In this document: piece after piece, positions 8,997 to 30,558 of the stretch | Position numbering within the stretch: position 1 is the stretch's first letter | Layout: the number at the start of each line of letters is the position of its first letter | Assembly (NCBI RefSeq): GCF_003018255.1 | Contig: NZ_CP027440.1 | DNA: 64,000 bases | Origin: Escherichia coli | Lineage (GTDB): Bacteria > Pseudomonadota > Gammaproteobacteria > Enterobacterales > Enterobacteriaceae | Strand: one strand, 5' to 3' | The notes under the pieces: generated by a model | Seen by the model: only the letters and a program-made list of their open reading frames with translations | Database searches by the model: none | What the model was told of the DNA's origin: nothing | Program-made: the position numbers and the translations under genes

Positions 8997-9314
8997 AGTT
9001 AGCTCCAATTTCCGTAAGGCAAAAAAAAAGAAAGGTAACTTCCCCCGCGAGAGGGAAGTTACCTTTCTCATTATCTCTGGTAACTGGAGATAATTTTTAT
9101 CATAAGGGCATAATCGCTAATGTGATCGTAATCACAGTGTTATATTCGAATTGTCAAATAATTTTAAAAAGCAGAAGCGTGATTACTCTCACACAACACC
9201 ACTGCTTTCCATGTTATTTCTTATTGCAATTACTAGAGACCTGAGAAAAGTAATCCACCTGAAAGGGCGGCTTACTTTTCTCTTTTTTTTGTCTATTACA
9301 AATGGGAATACGAT

Positions 9315-10592
9315 ATGCAACACAACTCATATCGCCGTTGGATAACCCTCGCGATAATTAGTTTTAGCGGCGGCGTTAGTTTCGATCTGGCTTATTTACG
9401 TTATATTTATCAAATTCCCATGGCGAAATTTATGGGATTCAGCAATACCGAGATAGGTTTAATAATGAGTACCTTTGGTATTGCGGCTATTATTCTTTAT
9501 GCCCCCAGCGGCGTTATTGCCGATAAATTTTCACACCGCAAAATGATTACTTCCGCGATGATCATTACCGGATTACTGGGTCTGTTAATGGCAACATATC
9601 CACCGCTGTGGGTAATGCTCTGTATTCAGGTCGCCTTTGCGATAACGACGATTTTAATGCTGTGGTCGGTGTCGATTAAAGCCGCCTCATTGCTGGGCGA
9701 TCATAGTGAGCAAGGGAAAATTATGGGCTGGATGGAAGGGCTGCGCGGCGTCGGTGTAATGTCGCTGGCGGTGTTTACCATGTGGGTCTTTTCTCGCTTT
9801 GCGCCGGATGACAGCGCCAGCCTGAAAACAGTCATTATTATCTACAGTGTGGTTTACATCTTGTTGGGGATTCTGTGCTGGTTTTTTGTTAGCGATAACA
9901 ACAACCTGCGCAGTACCAATAACGAAGAAAAACAGTCATTCCAGCTTAGCGATATCCTGGCCGTTTTGCGTATCAGTACCACCTGGTATTGCAGCATGGT
10001 GATTTTTGGTGTCTTCACCATCTACGCCATTCTGAGTTACTCCACCAACTATCTGACCGAAATGTACGGCATGTCGCTGGTGGCGGCGAGCTACATGGGG
10101 ATTGTGATCAACAAAATCTTCCGCGCGCTGTGCGGCCCACTTGGCGGCATTATCACCACCTACAGTAAAGTGAAATCCCCTACCCGCGTGATCCAAATCC
10201 TTTCCGTACTCGGCCTGCTGGCGTTAACTGCCCTGCTCGTCACGAACTCTAACCCGCAATCGGTCGCGATGGGGATTGGCCTGATTTTACTGCTGGGATT
10301 CACCTGTTACGCCTCACGCGGGCTGTACTGGGCCTGCCCAGGCGAAGCGAGAACACCGTCTTACATTATGGGCACCACGGTAGGTATTTGTTCGGTGATT
10401 GGATTCCTGCCGGATGTCTTCGTTTACCCAATTATCGGCCACTGGCAAGACACCCTGCCCGCAGCAGAAGCCTACCGCAATATGTGGCTGATGGGCATGG
10501 CGGCGCTTGGCATGGTGATTGTCTTTACCTTTTTGCTGTTCCAAAAAATTCGTACTGCTGATAGCGCCCCCGCAATGGCTAGCAGCAAGTAA
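9315..10592 (+). CDS. yqcE: MFS-family transporter
   Basis: 425-aa hydrophobic ORF; AT-rich codon usage compared with flanking genes. Confidence 0.8.
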   Translation: MQHNSYRRWITLAIISFSGGVSFDLAYLRYIYQIPMAKFMGFSNTEIGLIMSTFGIAAIILYAPSGVIADKFSHRKMITSAMIITGLLGLLMATYPPLWVMLCIQVAFAITTILMLWSVSIKAASLLGDHSEQGKIMGWMEGLRGVGVMSLAVFTMWVFSRFAPDDSASLKTVIIIYSVVYILLGILCWFFVSDNNNLRSTNNEEKQSFQLSDILAVLRISTTWYCSMVIFGVFTIYAILSYSTNYLTEMYGMSLVAASYMGIVINKIFRALCGPLGGIITTYSKVKSPTRVIQILSVLGLLALTALLVTNSNPQSVAMGIGLILLLGFTCYASRGLYWACPGEARTPSYIMGTTVGICSVIGFLPDVFVYPIIGHWQDTLPAAEAYRNMWLMGMAALGMVIVFTFLLFQKIRTADSAPAMASSK

Positions 10593-10618
10593 GCCAGGAA
10601 AATTACAGGAGAAAAATC

Positions 10619-12097
10619 ATGTCGAAAAAATACATCATAGGGATTGATGGCGGAAGTCAGAGCACAAAAGTGGTGATGTACGATCTGGAAGGTAATGTGG
10701 TTTGCGAAGGTAAAGGCTTATTGCAGCCGATGCATACGCCAGATGCCGATACTGCCGAACATCCTGACGACGATTTATGGACATCGTTATGCTTTGCCGG
10801 TCACGATTTGATGAGCCAGTTTGCCGGAAATAAAGAAGATATTGTCGGTATTGGTCTGGGCTCCATCCGTTGCTGTCGTGCGTTATTGAAAGCCGATGGC
10901 ACGCCCGCTGCGCCATTGATTAGCTGGCAGGATGCACGTGTAACACGTCCCTACGATCATACCAATCCAGATGTGGCCTATGTCACCTCTTTTTCGGGTT
11001 ATCTGACGCATCGCTTAACCGGCGAGTTTAAAGATAATATCGCCAACTATTTTGGTCAGTGGCCGGTGGATTATAAGAGCTGGACATGGAGTGAAGATGC
11101 TGCGGTAATGGATAAGTTTAATATCCCCCGTCATATGCTGTTTGATGTGCAAATGCCTGGCACCATTCTTGGGCATATCACACCACAAGCTGCGCTGGCG
11201 ACACATTTCCCGGCTGGGCTGTCGGTTGTTTGTACCACCAGTGATAAACCGGTAGAAGCTCTGGGAGCCGGGTTACTGGATGATGAAACTGCGGTAATTT
11301 CTCTTGGCACTTACATCGCATTGATGATGAACGGCAAAGCCTTGCCGAAAGATCCGGTGGCGTACTGGCCGATTATGTCTTCTATTCCGCAAACATTGCT
11401 GTATGAAGGTTACGGTATTCGCAAAGGCATGTGGACGGTGAGCTGGCTGCGCGACATGTTAGGCGAGTCGTTAATTCAGGATGCCAGGGCGCAGGATCTT
11501 TCACCGGAAGATTTACTCAACAAGAAAGCCTCTAGTGTGCCACCTGGCTGTAATGGGCTGATGACGGTGCTGGACTGGCTGACCAATCCGTGGGAACCGT
11601 ACAAACGCGGGATTATGATCGGCTTTGATTCCAGTATGGATTACGCATGGATATATCGTTCGATACTGGAAAGCGTGGCGCTGACGCTGAAGAACAATTA
11701 CGACAATATGTGTAATGAAATGAATCACTTTGCGAAGCATGTAATCATTACTGGCGGCGGTTCGAACAGCGATCTGTTTATGCAGATTTTTGCCGACGTG
11801 TTCAACCTTCCGGCACGACGTAACGCCATTAACGGTTGTGCAAGTCTGGGGGCAGCGATTAATACCGCGGTAGGTCTGGGGCTATACCCGGATTACGCAA
11901 CGGCTGTCGACAAAATGATTCGCGTGAAAGATATCTTTATACCGATTGAGAGCAATGCCAAACGCTACGACGCGATGAATAAAGGCATTTTCAAAGACCT
12001 AACCAAACATACTGATGTGATCCTGAAAAAATCGTATGAAGTGATGCATGGGGAATTGGGGAATGCGGATTCGATCCAGAGCTGGTCGAATGCGTAA
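10619..12097 (+). CDS. ygcE: FGGY-family carbohydrate kinase
   Basis: 492-aa ORF with N-terminal IGIDGGSQSTKVVMYD sugar-kinase signature; RBS aggagaaaaatc ATG. Confidence 0.85.
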   Translation: MSKKYIIGIDGGSQSTKVVMYDLEGNVVCEGKGLLQPMHTPDADTAEHPDDDLWTSLCFAGHDLMSQFAGNKEDIVGIGLGSIRCCRALLKADGTPAAPLISWQDARVTRPYDHTNPDVAYVTSFSGYLTHRLTGEFKDNIANYFGQWPVDYKSWTWSEDAAVMDKFNIPRHMLFDVQMPGTILGHITPQAALATHFPAGLSVVCTTSDKPVEALGAGLLDDETAVISLGTYIALMMNGKALPKDPVAYWPIMSSIPQTLLYEGYGIRKGMWTVSWLRDMLGESLIQDARAQDLSPEDLLNKKASSVPPGCNGLMTVLDWLTNPWEPYKRGIMIGFDSSMDYAWIYRSILESVALTLKNNYDNMCNEMNHFAKHVIITGGGSNSDLFMQIFADVFNLPARRNAINGCASLGAAINTAVGLGLYPDYATAVDKMIRVKDIFIPIESNAKRYDAMNKGIFKDLTKHTDVILKKSYEVMHGELGNADSIQSWSNA

Positions 12098-12142
12098 GTG
12101 AGGAAGGCCGGGCGGGAAACTGCCCGGCCTGAACATACCTGA

Positions 12143-12281
12143 ATGGTTATCCCCGCTGACGCGGGGAACATAAGTTCGACAACTTAAAAAATGATAACAA
12201 GTCCGGTTTATCCCCGCTGATGCAGGGAACATAATAAAAACTTTAACTAGTTCGGTTTATCCCTGTTTTTACAAGGAATAT
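12143..12281 (-). CRISPR. Decayed type I-E CRISPR remnant (3 degenerate repeats, 2 spacers)
   Basis: Repeat-like units at about 12143-12171, 12204-12232 and 12253-12281 (for example cggtttatccccgctgatgcagggaacat), progressively diverged from the consensus. Confidence 0.7.
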
Positions 12282-12735
12282 TAACTACACTCGATGTCTT
12301 TAGAATAAAAGACAATACGAATCGTACTTTATCAATTTTCATTTAAAGTATGAACTGGATATCTTTATTCATAAGAACAATTCATCAACAGCGTATAGAG
12401 GCGGTTATGTAAAACCGCTCATTAGCCTCAAAACAAAGACAAATTTCCAGATTTATTACTTAATCAATGAATAACAAGCTTAAAAAATACACTGTAATTC
12501 TAAAGAAAAAATTAACAGGCATTAATTCAATATTAAAAAAATAATAGATTAAAATTTCTTAACGATTTAAGTATCATACAAATAACACTTTGATTAAATT
12601 TAATTTTTTGTATCGATAATTGTGAACTTCTCTGGCATGGAGAACTATTTTGAACATGAGGTGTTACGTGGATATGTTGCTTATTACAAGTACAGCTAAT
12701 ATAAAAACTTGAGAAAGAGATAACGGGTTATATGG

Positions 12736-13069
12736 TGGTTTATCCCCGCAGGCGCGGGGAACTCATAGAGAAAAGAAACGGCAGCTTTGCCACTTCCGGT
12801 TTATCCCCGCTGGCGCGGGGAACTCCGCGTTTCTAATCTCACCGCCACGGCGATCAACGGTTTATCCCCGCTGGCGCGGGGAACTCACCCCTTTAACGTC
12901 ACCAGACCGCTAACGACGCGGTTTATCCCCGCTGGCGCGGGGAACTCGCGTAACCATTTTGATGGCGCTACCGAAATGGCGGTTTATCCCCGCTGGCGCG
13001 GGGAACTCGATCAACGGCCTGGCGGCTGCCTCTGAAATCTCGGTTTATCCCCGCTGGCGCGGGGAACTC
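12736..13069 (-). CRISPR. Type I-E CRISPR array, 6 repeats and 5 spacers of 32 nt
   Basis: 29-nt repeat cggtttatccccgctggcgcggggaactc (reverse complement of the E. coli I-E repeat) at 12736, 12797, 12858, 12919, 12980 and 13041; spacers at 12765-12796, 12826-12857, 12887-12918, 12948-12979 and 13009-13040. Confidence 0.95.
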
Positions 13070-13250
13070 TCTAAACATAACCTATTATTAATTAATGATT
13101 TTTTAAGCCAGTCACAATCTACCAACTTTACAGTATCACACAAACAACACATCCATTATGTTAAAGAGCACTTAATCCATTGATTAAAAAGCTAAATATT
13201 TAAAATAACTCTATACAAACTAAAATCTACCAAACTTCGCCGCAATAATT
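13070..13250 (-). promoter_or_regulatory. AT-rich CRISPR leader on the queE-proximal side of the array
   Basis: Low-GC sequence directly abutting the terminal consensus repeat in crRNA orientation. Confidence 0.6.
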
Positions 13251-13408
13251 TTCACTCCAGCGAAAAATTAACGCCACAGAATTTGTAGAGAATGATAATG
13301 ATTAGTCCGGGATGGGCAAGATGGATGAGTTTTCAGAGGCGACAAACAATATAAATGAGTAGAAGTCTTTACAGGTTCCACCCATTTATAACGCTTATAA
13401 ATGTTTAA

Positions 13409-14080
13409 TCAGGCAATATTTAGATATTTATGTGTTTGCATCGACAAACGCCAATTACGCGCAATGCAGGTTTCAATGCACAAACGTGTGGCATCATCCT
13501 TTTGGCTAATCGGCTGCAGTGCAATGACTCGCGGTTTATCATCGGTCAGCGTTGCCAGTAGTTCATCCAGTGCTTCAATATCACGTACGCGCCCCACTGG
13601 ATGCTTGATTTCGTTGGCTCGCTCCAGTGCCTGTGACAACACTTCATAGCCGCCGCGCATGTTCAGCTTTGGTGATACGGTAACCCAGGTATTCGGTGTG
13701 CAGCGTACCTCATGAGTACCACTGGTTTCAATCTGGCAGCTAAAACCATTCTTTTCGAGCAGATCAGTCAGTGGTAGCAAATCATGAATGCAAGGCTCAC
13801 CACCCGTAATCACCACATGCCGCGCGGTGTATCCCTGGCGACCAATGACAGCCAGCAAGTCTTCACTGCTCGCCGCCCCCCACTTATCACTCTCTTTGGT
13901 CTTCGCCAGAATGCTGAAAAGGGAGACTTCCCGATCCTCAAGCTTTTCCCAGGTGTGTTTGGTGTCGCACCAGGCACAGCCAACCGGGCATCCCTGTAAA
14001 CGAATAAAAATGGCGGGGACGCCGGTAAAGTAACCCTCACCTTGCAGGGTCTGGAACATCTCGTTAATCGGGTACTGCAT
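13409..14080 (-). CDS. queE: 7-carboxy-7-deazaguanine synthase (radical SAM)
   Basis: 223 aa, MQYPINEMFQTLQGEGYFTGVPAIFIRLQGCPVGCAWCDTK with the CxxxCxxC-type radical SAM cluster motif. Confidence 0.9.
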   Translation of the reverse strand: MQYPINEMFQTLQGEGYFTGVPAIFIRLQGCPVGCAWCDTKHTWEKLEDREVSLFSILAKTKESDKWGAASSEDLLAVIGRQGYTARHVVITGGEPCIHDLLPLTDLLEKNGFSCQIETSGTHEVRCTPNTWVTVSPKLNMRGGYEVLSQALERANEIKHPVGRVRDIEALDELLATLTDDKPRVIALQPISQKDDATRLCIETCIARNWRLSMQTHKYLNIA

Positions 14081-14374
14081 AGCATTCTCTGTGAAGTGGA
14101 TAATTGTTAATTATTGCAGATCCTGCCACAACAATCATGTCTTATTAACATTCTGTTACAGGCAGGTTTAAAGAAAAATGAGAAACAGATCGTTAATAAT
14201 AAAAGGGAGTAACGTATTATGTCAGAAATAAATAAAGTAAAGGGATTTAATCATGTCAAAAACATTCACCAAAATTATACTTATTTTTTTCTGTGTTCGT
14301 TTTTAATTATAACGAATCTCAAATTACCGATGCCGCCGTCAATTTATTTATCCAGCTTTAATGGGACATTTATA

Positions 14375-15244
14375 ATGCGCTATTTCATACTAATATTCAC
14401 ATTCGTGTGTTCCTTTGTTGCAGCCCAACCAACTATTGTCCCACAATTACAGCAACAAGTTACGGATCTTACGAGTAGCTTAAACTCACAAGAAAAGAAA
14501 GAACTGACGCGGAAGTTAGAATCTATTTTCAATAATACCCAAGTACAAATTGCTGTATTAATTATTCCCACAACCAAAGACGAGACAATTGAACAATATG
14601 CTACAAGGGTTTTTAACAATTGGCGTTTAGGAGATGCCAAACGCAATGATGGGATACTGATCATTGTTGCCTGGTCGGATCGCACTGTCCGCATCCAGGT
14701 AGGTTATGGGCTGGAAGAAAAGGTAACCGATGCTCTGGCTGGAGATATCATCCGTAGCAACATGATACCCGCATTTAAACAACAAAAATTAGCTAAGGGA
14801 TTAGAGTTAGCTATAATCGCTTTGAATAACCAACTCACTTCACAACACCAATATTCGGCTAATCCTTCAGAAAGTGAATCAGCGTCTTCCAGCGATCATT
14901 ACTACTTTGCTATTTTTTGGGTATTTGCAGTGATGTTCTTCCCTTTCTGGTTTTTTCATCAAGGCAGTAATTTTTGTCGCGCATGTAAAAGCAGTGTCTG
15001 TATTTCAGCAATCTATCTTTTAGATTTATTCCTGTTCTCCGATAAAACTTTTTCCATTGCTGTATTTTCCTTCTTTTTTACTTTCACCATATTTATGGTC
15101 TTTACCTGTTTATGTGTACTTCAGAAAAGAGCATCAGGTAGAAGTTATCATTCAGACAACAGCGGTTCCGCTGGAGGCTCAGGCGGCGGGTTTAGCGGCG
15201 GTGGCGGTTCTTCTGGCGGTGGCGGCGCATCCGGCCGCTGGTAA
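14375..15244 (+). CDS. ygcG: TPM-domain membrane protein with glycine-rich C-terminal tail
   Basis: ORF 14219..15244 trimmed to [19 protein letters not shown] (signal-peptide-like); internal TM segments; tail [26 protein letters not shown]. Confidence 0.75.
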
Positions 15245-15303
15245 CTCAACCATAAAAAACGCCAGCCCGAAGGCTGGCATTTTTAAATCAGATAAAGTCA
15301 GGC

Positions 15304-16617
<1,314 letters not shown>

Positions 16618-16689
16618 TCACTAGTTAAACTGAAACTCCAGACAAACAACGCGTACCCAGGGTACGCGTTGCCGTTCTAACTTTTTTAC

Positions 16690-18342
<1,653 letters not shown>

Positions 18343-18554
18343 TTAGGTTGAAAAGACGATGGAATAACCAGGACGGGAAAGCAGTATACCCGAACATGAC
18401 CTGTGCCACAAACTTTCATTATCCCTCCTCTTCGCCAGCGCACTATTGAAATCAGGAGTGAGAAAATAGCCCCTTTGGGGTAAATGTTTTTGACGCAAAT
18501 CAAGCGCTTGTCATTTAAAAAATGACACAAATCGCGCTTGACCACGTAATTCCC

Positions 18555-19346
18555 TTAGAGATCAATTTCCTGCCGTTTTACCTGTTGCCAGACTTCTTCC
18601 ATTGTTTCGAGGTCAACACCTGTCATTTCCAGTCCACGCGCGGCAACAATACGCTCCACTTCGCGAAAACGACGCTCGAATTTTTCGTTCGCTTTTTGCA
18701 ATGCGATTTCCGCTTTTGTCCCTAAATGACGAGCCAGATTGACTGTGGCAAACAGCAGGTCACCCATTTCCTCCTCCAGTTTAGCCTGGTCGACAACAAC
18801 CTGCCGCGCTTCGTACATCACCTCATCGATCTCTTCGTAGACTTTATCGACTACCGGGCCAAGCGTCGTCCAGTCGAAGCCAACGTTGGCGCAACGTTTC
18901 TGGATTTTTTGTGCGCGCATTAAGGCGGGTAAACTACTAGGGATATCGTCCAGCGCCGAATGCTGCGCTTTTTGCGCGCGCTCTTCAGTTTTGATTTGCT
19001 CCCAACGAGCAAGAACTTCGCGGCTGTTTCCGGCAGAACCGTCAGCAAAAACATGTGGATGACGGCGTTCTAATTTATCGCTAATCGCAGCGCAAATATC
19101 ATTAAAATCAAAGCGCCCTTCTTCCTGGGCCATTTGTGCGTAAAACACCACCTGGAACAGCAGATCGCCCAGTTCACCGCGCAGATCGTCAAAATCTTCA
19201 CGGGCGATGGCGTCCAGCACCTCGTAGGTTTCTTCAAGGGTGTAAGGCGCAATGGTGGCAAATGTCTGCTCTTTATCCCACGGGCAGCCGTTTTCCGGGT
19301 CACGCAGGCGCTGCATGATGGTGAGCAAACGGTCGATTTGATTCAT
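18555..19346 (-). CDS. mazG: Nucleoside triphosphate pyrophosphohydrolase
   Basis: 263 aa with tandem MazG-type NTP-PPase domains. Confidence 0.93.
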   Translation of the reverse strand: MNQIDRLLTIMQRLRDPENGCPWDKEQTFATIAPYTLEETYEVLDAIAREDFDDLRGELGDLLFQVVFYAQMAQEEGRFDFNDICAAISDKLERRHPHVFADGSAGNSREVLARWEQIKTEERAQKAQHSALDDIPSSLPALMRAQKIQKRCANVGFDWTTLGPVVDKVYEEIDEVMYEARQVVVDQAKLEEEMGDLLFATVNLARHLGTKAEIALQKANEKFERRFREVERIVAARGLEMTGVDLETMEEVWQQVKRQEIDL

Positions 19347-19441
19347 TAGAATGTCCTGAAAATTGCGGGTCCGTCAGGTGTAATACCTTCGAGTAAAAGA
19401 TATCGCTGGATACGGCTGACGCCATATCCAGCTATGTAAGA

Positions 19442-21676
19442 CTAACTCCCGTGCAACCGACGCGCGTCGATAACATCCGGCACCTGGTTGAGTTTACCCA
19501 GCACGCGCCCCAGCACTTGCAGGTTGTAAATCTCAATGGTCATGTCGATGGTCGCCAGTTGCTGTTTGGTGTCGCTACGGCTGGCAACGCCAAGTACGTT
19601 CACCTTCTCGTTGGCGAGAATGGTCGTGATATCACGTAACAACCCACTACGATCATTAGCCACCACGCGGACCACCAGCGAATATCCGGCGGAGTAGCTC
19701 TCGCCCCATACCGCGTCAACAATGCGTTCTGGCGCATGGGAGCGCAGTTCCGCCAATTGTTCGCAATCGGCGCGGTGTACTGAAATACCGCGCCCCTGGG
19801 TAATGAAGCCGACAATCTCATCTCCAGGAATCGGCTGGCAGCAGCGCGCGATGTGGTGCATCAGGTTACCGACCCCTTCTACCACCACACGACCGTTATC
19901 TTTACTGCGGTTTTGCGGCGTGTAGCTTTTTTGCTGAAGCTGTTTCAGCGCGGCGGCGTCCTGCTCTTCGGCACTCGGCTTATTAAATTGCGATTGCAGG
20001 AAGTTCACCATCTGATTGAGACGGATATCCCCGCCACCAATCGCCGCCAGCAACTCGTCGACATCATTGAAGTTGTAACGCGGCAGCAGATGTTTTTCTG
20101 CTTCTTTCAGGCTGATCCCCAGATGTTCCAGCTCGTCGTCAAGAATTTGCCGCCCAGCCAGAATGTTTTTGTCACGGTCCTGTTTACGGAACCAGGCGTG
20201 AATTTTCGAACGCCCACGGCTGGTTGTGACGTAACCGAGGTTTGGGTTTAACCAGTCACGGCTGGGGTTCGGCTGTTTCTGGGTGATAATTTCAATCTGG
20301 TCGCCCATCTGCAGCTGGTAGGTGAACGGCACAATGCGCCCGCCAATTTTTGCCCCGATGCAGCGGTGTCCGACATCACTGTGGATGTGGTAAGCGAAGT
20401 CCAGCGGCGTTGATCCCGCAGGCAAATCAACGACATCACCTTTCGGCGTAAAGACGTACACTCGGTCGTCAAAGACCTGACTACGTACTTCGTCGAGCAT
20501 TTCGCCGGAATCAGCCATCTCTTCCTGCCACGCAATCAGTTTACGCAGCCAGGCAATCCGGTCTTCATGTCCCGAACGTGCGCCGCCAGCAGCCGCGCCC
20601 TCTTTATATTTCCAGTGCGCAGCAACACCCAACTCTGCATCTTCATGCATCTGTTTGGTGCGGATTTGGATCTCAACGGTTTTGCCACCCGGCCCCAGAA
20701 CCACGGTATGAATGGACTGATAACCGTTTGGTTTCGGGTTAGCGACGTAATCGTCAAACTCATCCGGCAGGTGGCGATAGTGAGTGTGCACTATCCCCAG
20801 TGCGGCATAACAATCCTGTAAACGCTCGGCGACAATACGTACCGCACGCACATCAAACAGCTCATCGAAGGCGAGGTTCTTTTTCTGCATTTTGCGCCAG
20901 ATACTGTAGATGTGTTTCGGACGGCCATACACTTCAGCTTTAACGCCTTCAGCTTTCATCTCAGCGCGCAGATGGCCGACAAACTCTTCGATATAGTGTT
21001 CGCGGTCGAGACGGCGTTCATGCAGCAGTTTTGCGATGCGTTTGTATTCGGTCGGGTGGAGATAACGGAAGCAGTAATCTTCCAGCTCCCATTTCAGTTG
21101 CCCAATCCCAAGACGGTTCGCCAACGGCGCGTAGATATTGGTGCACTCTTTTGCCGCCAGTACGCGTTCATCTTCCGGCGCATCTTTTACTTCGCGCAGG
21201 TGAGCAATACGCTCCGCCAGTTTGATGACCACGCAGCGAAAATCATCGACCATCGCCAATAACATCCGGCGAACGTTATCGACCTGTTCGGAGGAAACAG
21301 AATCAGTGTGCGTCGCTTTCAGCTGGCGGATCGCCGCCATATCACGCACGCCGTGAATAAGGTTAACGACCGACTTACCGACGCTCTCACGCAGCACATC
21401 TTCGCTGACTACGTTGGCATCAGCCAGAGGGAACAGCAGCGCCGCCCGCAGCGTGTCAATGTCCATACTTAATGTCGAGAGGATCTCCACCATCTCAACA
21501 CCACGCCACAATAACAGACTGGCATCCGGATGCCCCTGCGTCTGTTGCAGACAATACGCCCAGGTTTCGGCTAAGCACTCACACGACTTCTGGCTGGTAA
21601 TACCCAGACTTGCGATCCATTTTTCCGGATCAAATTCACCAGCCTTATTGATATGTGCACTTCTTACCGCAACCAT
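19442..21676 (-). CDS. relA: GTP pyrophosphokinase ((p)ppGpp synthetase I)
   Basis: 744 aa, MVAVRSAHINKAGEFDPEKWIASLGI; C-terminus ...IDARRLHGS. Confidence 0.97.
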   Translation of the reverse strand: MVAVRSAHINKAGEFDPEKWIASLGITSQKSCECLAETWAYCLQQTQGHPDASLLLWRGVEMVEILSTLSMDIDTLRAALLFPLADANVVSEDVLRESVGKSVVNLIHGVRDMAAIRQLKATHTDSVSSEQVDNVRRMLLAMVDDFRCVVIKLAERIAHLREVKDAPEDERVLAAKECTNIYAPLANRLGIGQLKWELEDYCFRYLHPTEYKRIAKLLHERRLDREHYIEEFVGHLRAEMKAEGVKAEVYGRPKHIYSIWRKMQKKNLAFDELFDVRAVRIVAERLQDCYAALGIVHTHYRHLPDEFDDYVANPKPNGYQSIHTVVLGPGGKTVEIQIRTKQMHEDAELGVAAHWKYKEGAAAGGARSGHEDRIAWLRKLIAWQEEMADSGEMLDEVRSQVFDDRVYVFTPKGDVVDLPAGSTPLDFAYHIHSDVGHRCIGAKIGGRIVPFTYQLQMGDQIEIITQKQPNPSRDWLNPNLGYVTTSRGRSKIHAWFRKQDRDKNILAGRQILDDELEHLGISLKEAEKHLLPRYNFNDVDELLAAIGGGDIRLNQMVNFLQSQFNKPSAEEQDAAALKQLQQKSYTPQNRSKDNGRVVVEGVGNLMHHIARCCQPIPGDEIVGFITQGRGISVHRADCEQLAELRSHAPERIVDAVWGESYSAGYSLVVRVVANDRSGLLRDITTILANEKVNVLGVASRSDTKQQLATIDMTIEIYNLQVLGRVLGKLNQVPDVIDARRLHGS

Positions 21677-21723
21677 CGTCCTCTCCTTTAGGGACCAGAC
21701 CTGCCGAAATCGGCAAATCGTAA

Positions 21724-23025
21724 CTATTTAACGCGCGAGAAAAGTACCATCGATTCCAGATGTCCCGTGTGTGGGAACATATCCAGCATCGCCAGTCGCG
21801 CAATGGTATATCCTGCTTTTAATAACGCTTCGCTATCCCGAGCCAGCGTTGCAGGGTTACAGGATACATAAACTATACGAATAGGTTCCAGTTTTATAAT
21901 TTGCTGCATAACACCTGCGGCACCTGCTCGCGCCGGGTCCAGCAACACTTTATCGAAGCCGTTTTTCGCCCACGGCTGCTTTGTGACATCTTCTTCAAGA
22001 TTTTCGTGATAAAACGTCACATTCTGTAAGCCATTAAGACGCGCATTCTGCTGGCCTTTTTCCACCAGCGCCGGAACACCTTCTACACCCACCACACTGG
22101 CAGCTTGTGTCGCCAATGGCAGTGTAAAGTTGCCCATACCGCAGAACAGATCCAGTACGCAATCTTCAGGTTCCACATCCAGCCATTCCAACGCACGCGC
22201 TACCATTTTCTGGTTCACACCCGCATTGACCTGAATAAAATCGCGCGGGCTAAAAGTTAAGCGCAACCCATTTGAGTCATACCAGGGCATCTCACCAGAG
22301 ACGGTTTCGAGTATCTCACTATCGGGGGCGAGATACAGATCCAGGCCTTCAGAATGCGAAAAGCATTCCAGTTTTTCGCGATCTGCCGAACTTAGCGGTG
22401 CGGTATGGCGCAAAATCATTAGCGTGCCGCTGGTTGCCTGTACCAGTTCAACATGACCAAGATGGCGCATAGCTTGTAAGCTGCCCAGGCATGCCCTGAC
22501 TTTGGGCAGCAATGCTTCAAGTTGGGGCACTAAAATGGGGCATTGTTTAACGTCGACAATGTCACTGGAGCCCGCTTTGCGAAACCCCATCTGAAGTTGC
22601 TGTGTTTTCGGTAAGTAGTTCAGACTTAAACGCGCGCGACGGCGATAGCCCCAGGGAACATCGGCGATCACTTCAGAGACTTCGTGTTTCATTAATCGGG
22701 CGAGTGCCGCACTTTTGCTTCGCTGCTGTAAATCCACACTGGCGTGTTGTTGCTGACAGCCGCCGCATACGCCAAAATGAGGACAGCGTGGCGTTTCGCG
22801 TTCCGGGCTATCGCTTAATCGGCGTACGACTTTAGCGCGGGCATACTGTTTTTTATCTTCAGTAACAGTAACTTCCGCGTTTTCCTGCGGCAATAATCCG
22901 GGGATAAATAATGTTTTGCCGTTATGTCGCGCCACACCCTGACCAAAAGAGTCGAGGTCGTTGACTGAAACGGTTATGATCTGACGCGTCGTCGTGCGTC
23001 GTTTTGCAGAGTAGAATTGCGCCAT
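21724..23025 (-). CDS. rlmD: 23S rRNA (uracil1939-C5)-methyltransferase
   Basis: 433 aa; TRAM domain, Fe-S cysteines [14 protein letters not shown]-methyltransferase fold. Confidence 0.93.
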
Positions 23026-23081
23026 TGGCGAGACTTTCTCAATTTAACAGTGTGACCTTAATTGTCCCATAACGGAACTCC

Positions 23082-25838
23082 ATGACCAACTACAGCCTGC
23101 GCGCACGCATGATGATTCTGATCCTGGCACCGACCGTCCTTATTGGTTTATTGCTGAGTATCTTTTTCGTCGTGCATCGCTATAACGACTTGCAGCGTCA
23201 ACTGGAAGATGCCGGTGCCAGCATTATTGAGCCGCTTGCAGTTTCTACTGAATATGGCATGAGTCTGCAAAATCGCGAATCTATCGGTCAGTTAATAAGC
23301 GTACTGCATCGTCGCCATTCTGATATTGTTCGCGCGATTTCGGTTTATGATGAAAATAACCGACTCTTTGTCACCTCCAATTTTCATCTTGATCCCTCAT
23401 CAATGCAGCTCGGCAGCAACGTGCCGTTTCCTCGCCAGCTCACTGTCACTCGTGACGGCGATATAATGATCCTCCGCACGCCGATTATTTCTGAAAGTTA
23501 CTCCCCCGACGAATCGCCCAGTAGCGATGCCAAAAATAGTCAAAATATGCTGGGATATATTGCGCTGGAGCTGGATCTTAAATCGGTTCGCTTGCAGCAA
23601 TATAAAGAGATCTTTATTTCCAGCGTGATGATGCTGTTTTGTATCGGTATTGCGCTTATTTTTGGCTGGCGCTTAATGCGCGATGTAACCGGTCCGATTC
23701 GCAACATGGTGAATACCGTCGACCGCATCCGTCGCGGGCAACTCGACAGCCGGGTGGAAGGTTTTATGCTCGGCGAACTGGATATGCTGAAAAACGGTAT
23801 CAACTCGATGGCAATGTCGCTGGCGGCTTATCACGAAGAGATGCAACACAATATCGACCAGGCGACGTCCGATCTGCGTGAGACGCTGGAGCAAATGGAG
23901 ATTCAGAACGTTGAGTTGGATCTGGCGAAAAAGCGCGCCCAGGAAGCGGCGCGTATTAAATCCGAGTTTCTGGCAAATATGTCACACGAGCTGCGTACAC
24001 CACTGAATGGTGTTATTGGCTTTACCCGCCTGACGCTGAAAACAGAATTAACACCAACGCAGCGCGATCACCTGAATACGATTGAACGTTCGGCAAATAA
24101 TTTGCTGGCAATTATTAATGATGTTCTCGACTTCTCGAAACTGGAAGCCGGTAAGCTGATTCTGGAAAGTATTCCATTCCCACTACGCAGCACGCTGGAT
24201 GAAGTCGTTACCCTGCTGGCACATTCTTCTCACGATAAAGGGCTGGAACTGACGCTCAATATTAAAAGCGACGTGCCTGATAACGTGATCGGCGACCCAC
24301 TACGATTACAGCAAATCATCACTAACCTGGTAGGGAATGCAATTAAATTCACCGAGAATGGCAACATTGATATTCTGGTAGAAAAACGTGCGCTGAGTAA
24401 TACCAAAGTGCAAATTGAAGTGCAGATTCGGGATACCGGCATTGGTATTCCTGAACGCGATCAATCGCGCTTATTCCAGGCCTTCAGACAGGCTGATGCC
24501 AGTATTTCCCGCCGTCATGGTGGCACCGGGCTGGGGCTGGTGATTACACAAAAACTGGTTAATGAAATGGGCGGCGATATTTCGTTCCATAGCCTGCCGA
24601 ATCGTGGTTCAACTTTCTGGTTCCACATTAATCTCGATCTGAACCCGAACATTATTATCGAAGGGCCATCCACCCAGTGCCTCGCTGGTAAGCGCCTGGC
24701 CTATGTCGAACCAAACTCCGCAGCAGCACAATGCACGCTGGATATTTTAAGTGAAACGCCGCTGGAAGTGGTTTATAGCCCAACGTTCTCCGCGCTGCCT
24801 CCCGCGCATTACGACATGATGTTATTAGGCATAGCGGTGACCTTCCGCGAGCCGCTAACAATGCAACATGAGCGATTAGCGAAAGCAGTATCGATGACCG
24901 ATTTCCTGATGCTGGCACTTCCTTGCCATGCACAAGTCAATGCTGAAAAACTTAAGCAAGATGGTATCGGCGCGTGTCTGCTGAAACCATTAACACCTAC
25001 GCGCCTGTTGCCTGCCCTGACGGAATTTTGTCATCACAAACAAAACACGCTTTTGCCTGTAACCGATGAAAGTAAGCTGGCAATGACAGTCATGGCGGTT
25101 GATGACAACCCCGCTAACCTGAAACTTATCGGCGCATTGCTGGAAGATATGGTGCAACATGTGGAACTTTGCGATAGCGGGCATCAGGCGGTTGAACGGG
25201 CGAAACAGATGCCGTTCGATTTAATCTTAATGGATATTCAAATGCCGGACATGGACGGCATTCGGGCATGTGAGCTCATCCACCAGCTCCCGCATCAGCA
25301 GCAAACGCCGGTTATCGCGGTAACGGCGCATGCGATGGCCGGGCAAAAAGAGAAACTGCTTGGCGCGGGGATGAGTGATTATCTGGCCAAACCGATCGAA
25401 GAAGAGCGATTGCATAATTTGCTGTTGCGCTACAAGCCTGGCAGCGGTATTTCCTCTCGCGTCGTGACGCCCGAAGTCAACGAAATTGTGGTCAACCCGA
25501 ATGCGACCCTCGACTGGCAACTGGCACTACGCCAGGCAGCAGGAAAAACCGATTTAGCGCGCGATATGCTGCAAATGTTACTCGATTTCCTGCCTGAAGT
25601 TCGCAACAAAGTTGAGGAACAGCTGGTTGGAGAAAACCCGGAAGGCCTGGTTGATTTGATTCATAAACTGCATGGCAGTTGCGGCTATAGCGGTGTACCG
25701 CGTATGAAGAATCTCTGCCAACTGATCGAACAACAGCTACGTAGCGGTACTAAAGAAGAAGATTTAGAGCCGGAGCTGCTGGAACTGTTGGACGAGATGG
25801 ATAATGTAGCGCGCGAAGCCAGCAAAATTCTCGGGTAA
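23082..25838 (+). CDS. barA: Hybrid sensor histidine kinase of the BarA/UvrY two-component system
   Basis: 918 aa; HAMP, HisKA (H-box SHELRTPLN), HATPase, receiver and HPt domains. Confidence 0.95.
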
Positions 25839-25910
25839 TGGACGTCTTGTCGAGTAGCAACCGGATTTTTATGACGCTGGTTTCAGATTGGTGACAAGTG
25901 CCTGTGTTTA

Positions 25911-25941
25911 TGCCGGATGCGGCGTTAACGCCTTATCCGGC
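25911..25941. repeat. REP element
   Basis: gccggatgcggcgttaacgccttatccggcc, matching the REP consensus, between convergent barA and gudD. Confidence 0.7.
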
Positions 25942-26068
25942 CTGCAAAACCAATTAAATTCAATGAATTAAAAAATGATGTAGCCCTGATACGTAGCGCA
26001 ACAGGCAATTTTGCGTTTGGCATCAGTCTCAAACCGGCTCCAGATAGAGCCGGTTTTGGTTTTCTGTC

Positions 26069-27409
26069 TTAACGCACCATGCACGGACGCTTGTTATCGA
26101 ACGTCCAGCCGGGGATCAGGTACTGCATTCCCATCGCATCGTCACGCGCGCCAAGCCCGTGTTTCTGATACAGCTCGTGCGCTTTCATCACTTGATCCAT
26201 ATCGATTTCTACACCCAGCCCCGGTTTTTCTGGCACCTGAACCAGACCGCCTTTGATCTCTAACGGTTCTTTGGTCAGGCGCTGATTACCTTCCTGCCAG
26301 ATCCAGTGCGTATCAATCGCGGTGATTTTACCCGGTGCGGCAGCGGCAACATGGGTAAACATCGCCAGGGAAATATCGAAGTGGTTGTTGGAGTGTGAAC
26401 CCCAGGTCAGGCCAAATTCATGACACATTTGCGCCACACGTACCGAACCTTGCATCGTCCAGAAATGCGGATCCGCAAGCGGGATATCAACGGATTGCAA
26501 CGAGAGCGTATGGCCCATCTGCCGCCAGTCGGTGGCGATCATATTGGTTGCGGTCGGCAGGCCAGTTGCGCGACGGAACTCTGCCATCACTTCACGCCCG
26601 GAGAAACCTTGCTCCGCACCACACGGATCTTCTGCATAAGCCAGCGAACCTTTCAGGTATGTACCGATTTTAATCGCTTCTTTCAGCGACCAGGCACCGT
26701 TAGGATCGAGCGTAATACGCGCCTGCGGGAAACGTTGCGCCAGTGCCACAATAGATTCGGCTTCTTCTTCCCCGGCCAGTACACCGCCTTTCAGTTTGAA
26801 ATCGTTGAAGCCATATTTTTCATACGCCGCTTCCGCCAGGCGCACCACCGCATCCGGCGTCATCGCTTCTTCATGACGCAGGCGATACCAGTCGCATGAG
26901 TCATCCGGCTGGCTTTGATACGGCAGCGGTGTAGCTTTGCGATTGCCGACGAAGAACAGATAACCGAGCATTTCGACTTCGCTACGCTGTTGACCATCGC
27001 CCAGCAGCGATGCCACGTTTACCCCCAGATGCTGCCCCAGCAGATCCAGCATTGCCGCTTCTATCCCGGTAACTACATGAATAGTGGTACGCAAATCAAA
27101 TGTCTGCAAACCGCGCCCACCGGCATCACGATCGGCAAAAGTATTACGCACCAGCGTCAGAACGTTTTTGTATTCACCCAGCGTTTTACCCACCACCAGC
27201 GGAATCGCATCTTCCAGCGTTTTACGGATTTTCTCGCCGCCGGGAATTTCCCCTACGCCAGTGTGACCGGAATTATCTTTGATAATCACAATATTACGCG
27301 TGAAGAACGGTGCATGTGCACCACTCAGATTCATCAGCATACTGTCATGACCCGCCACCGGGATGACCTGCATTTCAGTAACAACAGGCGTCGTAAATTG
27401 AGAACTCAT
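26069..27409 (-). CDS. gudD: Glucarate dehydratase
   Basis: ORF 26069..27433 trimmed to [32 protein letters not shown] (446 aa); enolase-superfamily member. Confidence 0.93.
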
Positions 27410-27429
27410 ATTTATGTCCTTTTTCAGAA

Positions 27430-28770
27430 TCAATGACGGCCGAAAACGGGACGTTTACGGTCAAAGGTCCAGCCGGGGATCAGGTACTGCATCGGGCCTG
27501 CGTCGTTACGCGCACCGCCAGGCAGACGTTTATAGGCCTCATGTGCCTTTTGTACCTGTTCCCAGTCCAGTTCCACGCCCAGACCGGGCGCATCAGGAAC
27601 GGCAATTTTTCCGTTTTTAATCTCCAGCGGATTTTTGGTCAGACGACAATCGCCCTCCTGCCAAATCCAGTGGGTATCGATAGCGGTAGGATTACCCGGT
27701 GCCGCCGCGCCCACATGGGTAAACATCGCCAGAGAGATATCAAAGTGGTTATTAGAATGGCAGCCCCAGGTCAGCCCCCAGTCGTCGCAAAGTTGTGCCA
27801 CGCGGACTGCACCGGAAAGCGTCCAGAAGTGCGGATCGGCAAGTGGAATATCTACCGCATTGAGCATCACCGCATGACCCATTTCGCGCCAGTTGGTGGC
27901 GATCATGTTGGTCGCGACGGGCAAGCCGGTCGCCCGTCGAAACTCCGCCATCACTTCACGACCGGAGAAACCCTGCTCAGCGCCGCACGGGTCTTCCGCA
28001 TAGGTAAGAACATCATTCAGCCCTTTGCACAGAGAAATGGCTTCATCAAGCAGCCAGGCACCATTGGGATCAACGGTAATCCGCGCATCAGGGAAGCGTT
28101 TCTTCAATGCACGAACAGTGTCGATTTCTTGCTCGCCAGGTAACACGCCACCCTTAAGTTTGAAATCTTTAAAGCCATAGCGATCCTGTGAGGCTTCCGC
28201 CAGACGCACAACGGCTTCGCTGTTCATCGCTTTCTGATGCCGCAACTGATACCACTCATGGTTGCCCGGCGTATTTTCCAGATAAGGAAGATCGGTTTTG
28301 GTCCGATCACCGATATAAAACAGATAACCGAGAACGGTAATAGCATCACGTTGCTTGCCTGGCCCTAACAGTTCGCAGACCGGAACATTCAGCGCCTGAC
28401 CTAACAGGTCAAGCAAAGCGGCTTCCAGCGCCGCCACGGCATTAACGCGCAATTCAAAAGTCCAGGCACCTTTGCCGAAGGTATCAAAATCGGCTGCCTG
28501 ATTACCTTTATGCACCTGCTGAACCACTTTATTCAGGCGCGCAACTTCCTGGCCCAGCACCATCGGAATAGCCTCGACCAGTGTTTGATAAATCACCTCT
28601 CCGCCCGGCGCTTCACCAATGCCGGTATGCCCGGCGTTATCGGTGAGTACCACAATATTGCGGGTGAAATATGCGTTATGTGCACCACCAATATTAAGCA
28701 ACATGCTGTCATGTCCGGCGACCGGAATGACTTTCATATCAGTAATAACAGGACTGGATTGTGTCGTCAT
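27430..28770 (-). CDS. gudX: Glucarate dehydratase-related protein
   Basis: 446 aa paralogue of gudD ([31 protein letters not shown]). Confidence 0.93.
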
Positions 28771-28771
28771 C

Positions 28772-30124
28772 TTATTGCCCCGCGACAGGTTTCAGCTCAA
28801 TACGCTTGATATCGCCCACCAGCACCAGGTAGCTGAGTACCGCGATTAAGGCATGAACACCAACATAAATCAGCGCCCCATTAAAGGAGCCAGTCGTGCC
28901 AACGATATAACCAATTGCGATTGGCGTGACGATGCCAGAAATGTTACCAAACATGTTGAACAGGCCACCGGAAAGACCGCTGATCTCTTTTGGCGCAGTA
29001 TCAGCCATTACAGCCCAACCCAGCGCCCCGATCCCCTTACCGAAGAAGGCCAGCGCCATAAAGCCGATGATCATCCACTCAACGTTGACGTAGTTGCAGA
29101 ACACCATCACCATCGACAACAACATGCCCATCACGATCGGTGTTTTACGCGCAATGTTCAGTGAACCCGTGCGACGCATCAGCCAGTCGGAAATAATCCC
29201 ACCCAGCACACCGCCGATAAAACCGCAAACCGCCGGAACGGAAGCCACAAAGCCCGCTTTCAGAATCGACATCCCGCGCGCCTGCACCAGATAAACCGGG
29301 AACCAGGTAATGAAAAAGTAAGTCAGGGCGTTGATACAGTACTGACCGATATAAACGCCGATCATCATCCGTGACCCGAGCAGCTGTTTGATCTGCCCCC
29401 ACTTCACGCTGAACGGCACTTTAACTTTGGTGTTTTGCTGATCCATATTGATCAGCGCGCCACCCGCGGCGATGTACTCCAGCTCTTTCTGATTTACGCC
29501 CGGATGTTGATTTGGCTCGTGGATGACTTTCAACCAGATAAAGCTGATGACAATGCCCAGACCGCCCATAAAGAAGAAGACGTGTGACCAGCCCACTTCA
29601 TGAGTTAGCCAGCCCATAATCGGCGCGAAGATAACCGTTGCGAAGTATTGGGCGGAGTTAAAAATCGACACCGCCGTTCCCCTTTCCTGCGCCGGAAACC
29701 AGGCCGCAACAATGCGGCTGTTGCCAGGGAAAGATGGCGCTTCAGCAAGCCCGACCAGGAAGCGCAGTGTAAACAGGGCAACGATAATGCCGAATCCACT
29801 AAAGATATCGACGAAGCCTTGCAGCAAGGTAAACATCGACCAGATAAAGATCGACCAGAAGTAGACGCGTTTTGAACCAAAACGATCCAGCAACCAGCCA
29901 CCAGGGATCTGCCCGATAACATACGCCCATGAGAAGGCAGAGAACACATAGCCCATTCCCACGGGATCAAGGCCGATATCTTTGGCCATTTCCGAACCGG
30001 CAATAGAAAGCGTAGCGCGGTCGCCGTAGTTGAAGGATGTGACGATAAACAACATCACCACTATCCAGTAACGAGCATTCGTGCGTTTTTCCACACTGCT
30101 CGCAGCCTGACTTAAAGAACTCAT
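28772..30124 (-). CDS. gudP: Glucarate/galactarate MFS transporter
   Basis: 450 aa MFS; first gene of the gudPXD operon. Confidence 0.92.
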
Positions 30125-30558
30125 TGTTGCACTCCTGAAAATTCGCGTTAGCCACGCTCACTCTGGACTGCGACATCGCCAGGAAATCAGAGGTGACGTA
30201 GGGTGTTTTTTGCCGTTTTTATAGGTCGTTCGCCGAATACGGCGCGTGTTTATATCTGGCAATAGCAGTATAAAAAGCGCGCCATAGCGGCTCACCGTGC
30301 AACAACACAACATTAATGCGTTCAATGAGGCCCGATTTTGGCATTAGCCCTGGACGGTGGAATCCACTTCACGGAAATGAAAACAAGAACAAGAAAGGAA
30401 GGGTTAAAACGAAGAAATAAAGAAGAGTATGAAATGGATCGCTTGACTCCAGGCAAACGCCAGTAAAAATCCGCGCTATGAAGCAGTTTTTACTGGCATT
30501 TGCCTGAAAAGATTCGATTCAGCACCGCTAAAACGGCATTTACCGCTCGCTGAACATA

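What the first reader, a model, noticed from the sequence alone, without database searches (positions are those of the whole stretch)
19347..19441. mazEF toxin-antitoxin genes absent between relA and mazG
In K-12 the order is relA-mazE-mazF-mazG. Here the relA stop (19442) and mazG start (19346) are separated by only 95 bp containing an imperfect palindrome (gctggata...tatccagc) and no ORF. This strain therefore lacks the chromosomal MazEF module at its canonical site, while mazG is intact.
Basis: partly seen in the sequence, partly recalled or inferred. Interest (0 to 1): 0.5.

Follow-up and report, generated by a model that had tools for sequence, protein, structure and literature searches.

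The report
Common mazEF-free relA–mazG junction
This E. coli strain has the ordinary, already described form of the relA–mazG gene pair, found in about 18.5% of complete E. coli genomes, in which the MazEF toxin–antitoxin cassette is missing and an old hairpin-forming spacer sits in its place.

Summary
mazG (18555..19346, −) and relA (19442..21676, −) are separated by 95 bp, and no MazE or MazF homologue occurs in the spacer or anywhere in the 64-kb window. K-12 has relA-mazE-mazF-mazG.

This is a common, published polymorphism. Of 5,426 complete E. coli genomes, 1,006 (18.5%) carry this empty junction, including ATCC 25922 and ST131. Another 4,419 (81.4%) carry mazEF, always on the chromosome. 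The two sets sum to the 5,425 genomes that have the locus.

The empty allele is not a deletion scar. About 57 bp of it has no counterpart in K-12. That segment holds a 12-bp-stem hairpin (−23.3 kcal/mol) that aligns with the REP-type hairpin directly after relA in Klebsiella and Citrobacter. In 79 of 80 other enterobacterial loci relA lies just upstream of mazG, and none of the 80 has mazEF.

The window therefore shows the ancestral-type relA–mazG pair, and K-12 carries a roughly 690-bp insertion that replaced the hairpin. Flank alleles are shuffled relative to presence or absence, so recombination moves both forms between lineages. The finding is ordinary and of low interest.

The parts
18555..19346 (-). 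mazG (nucleoside triphosphate pyrophosphohydrolase), intact, 263 aa
   Evidence: ORF. It is 98% identical to K-12 MazG over residues 1-263, with 5 aa substitutions. The identical sequence is annotated mazG in JNE23-011.
19347..19384 (-). mazG leader shared by both alleles (empty and mazEF-bearing), including the AGGA ribosome-binding site at 19354..19357
   Evidence: Alignment with K-12. blastn matches spacer positions 6-34 at 96.6%. The stretch is conserved in all 8 empty-site sequences compared. The upstream boundary is fuzzy, at about 19381-19400.
19385..19441 (-). Allele-specific segment of about 57 bp with no counterpart in K-12, where about 690 bp (mazEF promoter/operator, mazE, mazF and part of the mazF–mazG spacer) sits instead
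   Evidence: The same segment is present in 1,006 complete E. coli genomes and in the divergent Escherichia loci L005 and L006.
19405..19432 (-). REP-type hairpin GCUGGAUAUGGC-GUCA-GCCGUAUCCAGC (12-bp stem, 4-nt loop), starting 9 nt after the relA stop
   Evidence: Fold ΔG −23.3 kcal/mol, z −6.1. It is the strongest terminator-like hit in the region. All 12 pairs are kept in 8 Escherichia sequences with one double compensatory change. It aligns with the hairpin after relA in Klebsiella and Citrobacter, where a C-G pair becomes U-A. It resembles the canonical REP at 25912..25941.
19395..19404 (-). GAUAUCUUUU tail after the hairpin, a weak and interrupted U-tract
   Evidence: One search lists the hairpin plus this tail as terminator-like. 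The MFE fold pairs the tail into a second, weak hairpin that could compete.
19442..21676 (-). relA (GTP diphosphokinase), intact, 744 aa, TAG stop at 19442..19444
   Evidence: ORF. The protein is identical to K-12 RelA. The DNA differs by 1 of 2,235 nt from the relA of mazEF-bearing IHE3034.

Best explanation
The 95-bp interval is the uninterrupted, ancestral-type relA–mazG intercistronic spacer. It is one of two alleles that coexist in E. coli.

In this allele relA is followed after 9 nt by a stable REP-derived hairpin with a weak U-tail, then by the mazG leader and ribosome-binding site. relA and mazG therefore form a simple two-gene unit.

The other allele (K-12 and about 81% of genomes) arose when a self-contained cassette of about 690 bp was inserted directly after the relA stop codon. 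That cassette holds the operator/promoter, mazE and mazF, has no terminator, and has relatives on conjugative plasmids. It replaced the hairpin segment.

Both alleles are old and are exchanged between lineages by homologous recombination in the conserved flanks. This strain therefore has no MazF-mediated RNA cleavage from this locus.

Inferred, not shown: mazG is expressed by read-through from the relA promoters, and the hairpin acts as a 3' stabiliser of relA mRNA and/or a partial terminator that sets the relA:mazG ratio.
For: Shown here.

(a) Anatomy and absence of mazEF.

(b) Population counts: 1,006 genomes have the empty junction, 4,419 have mazEF with 0 on plasmids, and 5,425 have the locus. 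The two alleles partition the species.

(c) Outgroups: 79 of 80 other enterobacterial loci have the relA 3' end upstream of mazG on the same strand, and none of the 80 has MazE or MazF. Within Enterobacteriaceae most gaps are about 60-150 bp.

(d) The hairpin aligns in position and sequence with the hairpin after relA in Klebsiella indica, K. pneumoniae and Citrobacter spp.. It is kept with compensatory changes in a divergent Escherichia, L005, whose relA is 7.4% diverged.

(e) A true secondary loss looks different. E. albertii NBRC 107761 retains both K-12-type cassette ends around REP DNA. The window has none of these.

(f) Mosaicism: the window's relA differs by 1 nt from that of mazEF-bearing IHE3034 and by 25 nt from that of empty-site ATCC 25922. 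IHE3034 and ATCC 25922 differ by only 2 nt in mazG and 1 nt in the 1,167-nt pyrG 3' segment compared.

(g) mazEF relatives at about 69% nt identity sit on conjugative Klebsiella, E. coli and Providencia plasmids.

Literature. PMC7167474 says relA-mazG forms an undisturbed bicistronic operon in strains lacking mazEF, and that the TA was inserted into the intercistronic region. PMC5120126 says TA cassettes carry a promoter but no terminator and that mazG is co-transcribed. PMC12151602 says mazEF is present in over 80% of sequenced strains.
Against: Nothing contradicts the anatomy. The weak points are as follows.

- Covariation support for the hairpin rests on few independent sequences, and the shuffle control is not significant (73 of 500).

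- The exact hairpin variant is single-copy, so calling it a REP rests on resemblance and orthology to hairpins in other genera.

- The U-tract is poor, so terminator activity is uncertain. The simple scan found no promoter, so the route of mazG transcription is inferred.

- E. albertii carrying a decayed cassette means the insertion is either older than the E. coli/E. albertii split or crossed species. The polarity 'empty = ancestral within Escherichia' is therefore the more parsimonious reading, not a proven one.
Confidence: 0.9

Rival explanations
1. This lineage once carried mazEF and lost it recently. The loss was not by deletion but by homologous-recombination replacement of the junction with an empty allele imported from another E. 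coli. The allele is ancestral in type, but its presence in this strain is secondary.
For: The window's relA is 2,234/2,235 identical to that of IHE3034, which carries mazEF. The window's stop codon is TAG, as in mazEF alleles, whereas ATCC 25922, ST131 MB1341, D8, MFDS1019527, L005 and L006 have TAA. The window's mazG contains a separate imported patch of about 330 nt, so recombination has occurred at this locus.
Against: The reverse event fits the same data equally well, that is, an ST95-like lineage gaining mazEF on a window-like relA background. The empty-site strain AGR6137 also has TAG, so the stop codon is not diagnostic.
Confidence: 0.3
2. The gap is a simple deletion scar: mazEF was excised from a K-12-like arrangement.
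For: It is the naive reading of relA-mazEF-mazG against relA-mazG. Secondary decay does occur elsewhere, as in E. albertii L004.
Against: A deletion cannot create the 57-bp segment that K-12 lacks. That segment is orthologous to the hairpin in other genera. Neither the operator palindrome nor the K-12-type mazF–mazG spacer remains, unlike in E. albertii.
Confidence: 0.03
3. mazEF is not lost but relocated, or replaced by a homologue, elsewhere in this strain's genome, so the strain is not MazF-free.
For: Other E. coli carry additional MazF/PemK-family modules: chpB (established knowledge) and a PemK-like mazEF-1 island in NRG857c (PMC7232551). Only 64 kb of this genome is visible.
Against: For K-12-like mazEF, the counts 1,006 + 4,419 = 5,425 leave essentially no empty-site genome with a copy elsewhere, and no copy is on an E. 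coli plasmid. No MazE/F-like sequence occurs in the window. Distant homologues remain untested.
Confidence: 0.25
4. The short gap is an assembly or sequencing artefact that collapsed the cassette.
For: None.
Against: The same junction is found in 1,006 independent complete genomes and in two divergent Escherichia assemblies.
Confidence: 0.01

Closest known systems
Empty relA–mazG junction of mazEF-negative E. coli (for example CFT073, ATCC 25922 and ST131 strains), described as an 'undisturbed bicistronic operon' by Fraikin, Goormaghtigh & Van Melderen 2020 (PMC7167474)
   Same: Same gene order, the same 95-bp spacer and the same hairpin. The 131-bp junction query is 97.0-100% identical in almost all sampled empty-site genomes, with one divergent strain at 93.7%.
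   Different: The window's flanks are a particular mosaic: a relA allele like that of ST95 strains, and a mazG with a central patch about 9% diverged. Its nearest complete genome is 98.8% identical over 22 kb. None of this changes the nature of the junction.
E. coli K-12 relA-mazE-mazF-mazG locus (chpA / MazEF type II toxin–antitoxin)
   Same: Same flanking genes, the same relA stop position and the same last ~38 bp of mazG leader.
   Different: K-12 has about 690 bp (operator/promoter, mazE, mazF, and the aMEF antisense RNA region) where the window has a 57-bp hairpin segment. The window encodes no toxin or antitoxin.
REP elements in operon spacers that stabilise upstream mRNA, with the malE–malF REP as the paradigm (Newbury et al. 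1987, recalled from established knowledge). REP sequences also occupy the empty folA–apaH site of the ccdO157 TA system (PMC7167474).
   Same: An extragenic, GC-rich imperfect palindrome directly 3' of a gene inside an operon. The arm sequence GCTGGATATGGCG resembles GCCGGATGCGGCG of the canonical REP at 25912..25941. As at folA–apaH, the TA-free allele carries REP-type DNA.
   Different: This copy is degenerate (GCCGG changed to GCTGG, with a compensating change) and single-copy as an exact variant. No stabilising or terminating activity has been measured.
Decayed mazEF site of Escherichia albertii NBRC 107761
   Same: No mazE or mazF genes between relA and mazG.
   Different: E. albertii keeps the start of the mazE operator palindrome and the K-12-type mazF–mazG spacer around inserted REP/BIME DNA, in a 261-bp spacer. 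That is a genuine secondary loss. The window shows no such remnants.

Membership tests
MazEF type II toxin–antitoxin module | A PemK/MazF-family toxin ORF | tested here: not met
   tblastn with K-12 MazF finds no hit at E<=1e-5 anywhere in the window, and only chance-level hits at E<=10. The 95-bp gap cannot hold a 111-aa ORF.
MazEF type II toxin–antitoxin module | A MazE/AbrB-family antitoxin ORF directly upstream of, and overlapping, the toxin gene | tested here: not met
   No MazE hit.
MazEF type II toxin–antitoxin module | The autoregulated promoter with its operator palindrome in the relA–mazE spacer | tested here: not met
   blastn-short of the spacer against the K-12 cassette matches only the mazG-proximal 29 bp. 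The alignments show no operator remnant.
Ancestral enterobacterial relA–mazG gene pair | relA and mazG adjacent on the same strand with a short non-coding spacer | tested here: met
   The spacer is 95 bp. The same arrangement occurs in 79 of 80 outgroup loci, with no MazE or MazF in any of the 80.
Ancestral enterobacterial relA–mazG gene pair | Co-transcription of relA and mazG | not testable with these tools
   No promoter-like site was found between or within the genes by the simple scan. The literature calls the pair bicistronic (PMC7167474). No transcript data are available here.
REP (repetitive extragenic palindromic) element | Extragenic imperfect palindrome of about 30-40 nt with a GCCGGAT…ATCCGGC-type core | tested here: met
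   It is a 28-nt hairpin in an intergenic spacer. It aligns with GCCGGATAAGGCG…CGCCATCCGGC hairpins at the same position in Klebsiella and Citrobacter, and it resembles the REP at 25912..25941.
REP (repetitive extragenic palindromic) element | Many copies dispersed in the genome | tested here: inconclusive
   This exact variant occurs once in the window at up to 3 mismatches, and the junction query hits one place per genome. It is best described as a degenerate, REP-derived relic.
Intrinsic (Rho-independent) terminator | GC-rich stem-loop | tested here: met
   12 pairs, 7 of them G-C, ΔG −23.3 kcal/mol.
Intrinsic (Rho-independent) terminator | Uninterrupted U-tract immediately 3' of the stem, and termination in vivo | tested here: inconclusive
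   The tail is GAUAUCUUUU, with four consecutive U residues starting 6 nt after the stem. It can pair into a second weak hairpin. Activity is not testable here.

The most novel reading that the evidence does not exclude
The relA–mazG spacer may be a REP-marked hotspot at which small conflict cassettes integrate repeatedly. Examples are mazEF in E. coli, parDE in Salmonella (from the literature), and an Hcp–DUF4225–membrane-protein cassette in Buttiauxella.

On this reading the empty and mazEF alleles would be an ancient polymorphism kept by balancing selection, for example RNA-phage defence against toxin cost. It would span species boundaries, given the decayed cassette in E. albertii and pristine empty alleles in divergent Escherichia lineages. 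The alternative is neutral drift plus recombination.
Probability: 0.15. Interest if true: 0.4.

Novelty: already known. Interest (0 to 1): 0.1.

Why it matters
The finding has little weight by itself. It tells an annotator that this strain, like ST131 and CFT073/ATCC 25922-type strains, has no relA-linked MazF, so K-12 results on mazEF (stress response, persistence, phage defence) do not transfer to it.

It also gives a natural 'clean' reference for what the relA–mazG unit looks like without the cassette. That is relevant because engineered ΔmazEF strains often disturb mazG (PMC5120126).

Three details may add a little to the published statement. None of the papers I could read describes them, but the key paper on TA integration sites was not held:

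- the REP-type hairpin is orthologous across genera;
- E. albertii carries a decayed cassette;
- flank alleles are uncoupled from presence or absence.

These details bear on how chromosomal TA cassettes integrate and spread. They refine a known story and do not amount to a new one.

Tried and rejected
- **Rfam scan** of 18300..19800 at E<=1 found no family.

- **Promoter scan** of 18400..21900 found no sigma-70-like site, so no mazG-specific promoter can be proposed.

- **Terminator-like sites** as a class are not enriched in the region (6 found against 4.0 expected). Only this hairpin stands out.

- **Covariation on 8 Escherichia sequences** gave 100% pairing in the stem but only one double change. 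The shuffle control was not significant (73 of 500), so I do not claim statistical proof of selection on the structure.

- **Phage collection:** no relative of the K-12 cassette, so a phage origin is not supported.

- **Plasmids:** the only hit at 99% or more is a 4.8-Mb record, evidently a chromosome filed as a plasmid, so it was disregarded.

- **Is mazEF younger than its flanks?** IHE3034 against K-12 gives 98.8% for mazEF and 97.7-98.4% for the flanks. The difference is too small to support a recent sweep, so I dropped that idea.

- **Source of the divergent mazG patch:** E. albertii, L005 and L006 are all equally distant from it, so the source is unidentified.

- **Ramisetty & Santhosh 2016** (FEMS Microbiol Lett) is not held in the library. 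One paper search failed on a term-length rule.

- **Phylogroup assignment** of all genomes was not possible with these tools. Except where the record name or a cited paper gives it, phylogroup and ST labels are my own recollection.

Full report
**Observation**

The window encodes mazG at 18555..19346 and relA at 19442..21676, both on the minus strand, separated by exactly 95 bp. The sequence from pyrG to relA is 100% identical to E. coli JNE23-011, where PGAP annotates mazG and relA with nothing between them. K-12 MG1655 is annotated relA-mazE-mazF-mazG, with 731 bp between the relA stop and the mazG start.

tblastn with K-12 MazE and MazF finds nothing in the 64-kb window at E<=1e-5, and only chance-level fragments at E<=10. 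MazG is full length with 5 substitutions against K-12, and RelA is identical in protein sequence to K-12.

One small correction applies. A mechanical 41-aa ORF (19300..19425, −) overlaps the spacer and the mazG start out of frame. It is not annotated in the identical RefSeq sequence, and the tblastn searches with MazE and MazF found nothing there.

**How common it is**

I used one allele-specific query for each form.

- A 131-bp junction query is covered at 80% or more in 1,006 of 5,426 complete E. coli genomes.
- The K-12 mazEF coding DNA is found in 4,419 genomes, always on the chromosome and never on a plasmid.
- The locus as a whole is found in 5,425 genomes.

Since 1,006 + 4,419 = 5,425, the two alleles partition the species. 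Empty-site genomes as a class carry no K-12-like mazEF elsewhere.

The 81.4% carriage rate matches the published 'over 80% of sequenced strains' (PMC12151602). Empty-site strains include ATCC 25922 and an O25b:H4-ST131 strain. Carriers include K-12, O157:H7, E2348/69, IHE3034 and UTI89. The 18.5% figure is inflated by heavy clinical sampling. In the evenly spaced listing, 18 of the 30 empty-site rows have the junction variant seen in the ST131 strain MB1341.

**What the spacer is**

The empty allele is not K-12 minus a cassette. Alignment shows that homology with K-12 stops at the relA stop codon on one side and about 38 bp upstream of the mazG start on the other. The roughly 57 bp in between has no counterpart in K-12, which has about 690 bp there instead.

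Read in the mRNA sense, that segment contains the hairpin GCUGGAUAUGGC-GUCA-GCCGUAUCCAGC. It starts 9 nt after the relA stop and is followed by GAUAUCUUUU. The hairpin has ΔG −23.3 kcal/mol and z = −6.1 against shuffles, and it is the strongest terminator-like feature in the 3.5 kb scanned. Rfam has no match.

**Which allele is ancestral**

I fetched 80 mazG loci from other species, from Escherichia through Citrobacter, Salmonella, Klebsiella and Enterobacter to Erwinia, Pectobacterium and Serratia. In 79 of them the relA 3' end lies upstream of mazG on the same strand, and none of the 80 has a MazE or MazF homologue in the fetched locus. The one exception, L032, had no relA hit within the fetched flank.

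Their spacers are filled with REP-type palindromes. The first of these, directly after the relA stop, aligns column for column with the window's hairpin. For example, Klebsiella indica has GCCGGATAACGCATCAGCCGCTATCCGGC followed by a T-run. The C-G pair of the other genera is replaced by U-A on both sides in E. coli.

Two divergent Escherichia assemblies, L006 and L005, have relA sequences 3.7% and 7.4% diverged from the window. Both have the same 95-bp spacer. In L005 all 12 stem pairs are kept through one double change and three single-sided changes. The formal shuffle control on 8 sequences is not significant (73 of 500), so I treat structural conservation as likely but not proven.

The hairpin also resembles the canonical REP elsewhere in the window at 25912..25941. 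The exact variant, however, is single-copy.

**What a real loss looks like**

The E. albertii type strain has a 261-bp spacer. It begins with the first part of the K-12 mazE operator palindrome and ends with the K-12-type mazF–mazG spacer, but has REP/BIME DNA where the genes would be. That is a decayed cassette, and the window shows none of these vestiges.

This result has a second consequence. The cassette is either older than the E. coli/E. albertii split or has crossed between the two species.

**Recombination at the locus**

The window's relA differs by 1 of 2,235 nt from that of IHE3034, which carries mazEF, but by 25 nt from that of empty-site ATCC 25922. IHE3034 and ATCC 25922 in turn differ by only 2 nt in mazG and 1 nt in the 1,167-nt pyrG 3' segment compared. 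Presence or absence is thus uncoupled from the flanking alleles.

Because each allele has unique sequence, switching between them requires allelic replacement by homologous recombination, not simple excision. Divergence of mazEF between IHE3034 and K-12 (98.8% identity) is close to that of the flanks (97.7-98.4%), so there is no sign of a recent sweep.

Relatives of the cassette at about 69% nucleotide identity sit on conjugative Klebsiella, E. coli and Providencia plasmids, and none are found in phages.

**Mechanism**

Shown here: the gene order, the absence of toxin and antitoxin, the hairpin and its conservation, and the intact mazG ribosome-binding site and leader shared with K-12.

Inferred: relA and mazG are co-transcribed from the relA promoters. 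No promoter-like site was found in relA or the spacer, and the literature calls the pair bicistronic (PMC7167474).

Also inferred: the REP-type hairpin acts as a 3' stabiliser of the relA message, or as a leaky terminator that sets the relA:mazG ratio, by analogy with the malE–malF REP (established knowledge). In K-12 the cassette replaced this element and supplies its own promoters, and mazG is co-transcribed with it (PMC5120126).

**Comparison with what is known**

Fraikin et al. 2020 make this point explicitly. In many strains lacking mazEF, relA-mazG is an undisturbed bicistronic operon, the TA was inserted into the intercistronic region, and the same site hosts parDE in Salmonella. Bustamante et al. 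2020 report that CFT073 lacks the classic relA-linked mazF (PMC7232551).

The finding is therefore already known. The review's named example, UTI89, does in fact carry mazE and mazF at this site in RefSeq, so the example holds for other systems but not for mazEF.

**Verdict**

The feature is an ordinary, common, published allele. Interest is 0.1.

The only mildly new elements are the cross-genus orthology of the hairpin, the decayed E. albertii cassette, and the hint that this spacer is a recurrent landing site for small conflict cassettes. The last point rests on an Hcp–DUF4225–membrane-protein insert in Buttiauxella.

Noticed in passing
window 18799..19128 (− strand, inside mazG): The central ~330 nt of mazG differ at 29 positions (about 9%) from the B2-type alleles of ATCC 25922 and IHE3034, while the mazG segments on either side differ by 1 nt each. 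Across the whole gene, 23 of the 29 differing codons are synonymous. E. albertii, L005 and L006 are equally distant, so this looks like a recombination import from an unsampled divergent Escherichia. It is shared 100% with JNE23-011.
   Followed up: partly
window 19442..21676 (relA): The relA DNA is 2,234/2,235 identical to that of mazEF-bearing IHE3034 but differs at 25 sites from that of empty-site ATCC 25922. The stop codon is TAG, as in mazEF alleles, whereas six of the eight empty-site sequences compared have TAA.
   Followed up: partly
L004:2740-3000 (Escherichia albertii NBRC 107761): The 261-bp relA–mazG spacer keeps the start of the mazE operator palindrome and the K-12-type mazF–mazG spacer, but has REP/BIME DNA in place of mazE and mazF. 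This is a decayed mazEF cassette in another species.
   Followed up: partly
L040:1341-2928 (Buttiauxella agrestis ATCC 33320); L017:2566-2904 (Superficieibacter electus): The relA–mazG gap in Buttiauxella holds an Hcp/TssD gene (TIGR03344, E = 3e-56), a DUF4225 protein gene (PF13988, E = 1e-46) and a 109-aa membrane-protein ORF, which together look like a T6SS effector–immunity cassette. Superficieibacter has a weakly similar 112-aa membrane ORF at the same site (29% identity, E = 0.003). This suggests the spacer is an insertion hotspot.
   Followed up: partly
L093:7214-7797 (E. coli UTI89, NC_007946.1 3065213-3065796): UTI89 is annotated with mazF and mazE between relA and mazG. A 2020 review (PMC7167474) names UTI89 as an example of strains where relA-mazG is undisturbed. 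The review's general statement holds, but this example does not hold for mazEF.
   Followed up: yes
window 19300..19425 (− strand): A mechanical 41-aa ORF starts at an ATG in the hairpin loop and overlaps the first 47 nt of mazG out of frame. It is not annotated in the identical RefSeq sequence, and tblastn with MazE and MazF found nothing there. It is probably spurious.
   Followed up: partly
window 25912..25941: A canonical REP palindrome, GCCGGATGCGGCGTTAACGCCTTATCCGGC. It was the only hit in the window to a REP-core pattern.
   Followed up: no
window 9000..31000: The best match among 5,426 complete E. coli genomes is only 98.8% identical over 22 kb (JNE23-011 and JNE112863, human isolates; JNE23-011 is recorded from Japan). 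The next-best matches are mostly poultry or APEC strains, so the window comes from a sparsely sampled or mosaic lineage.
   Followed up: no
PLSDB record NZ_OL790696.1; E. coli SW07163 (NZ_CM129852.1 ~1018132-1018855): NZ_OL790696.1 is a 4.8-Mb 'plasmid' record that carries the chromosomal mazEF locus, so it is evidently a chromosome filed as a plasmid. In strain SW07163 the locus is split. The match to the window junction covers only the mazG side, and only 61% of the mazEF query matches in one place (2 places in the record), suggesting an insertion or truncation in mazEF.
   Followed up: no
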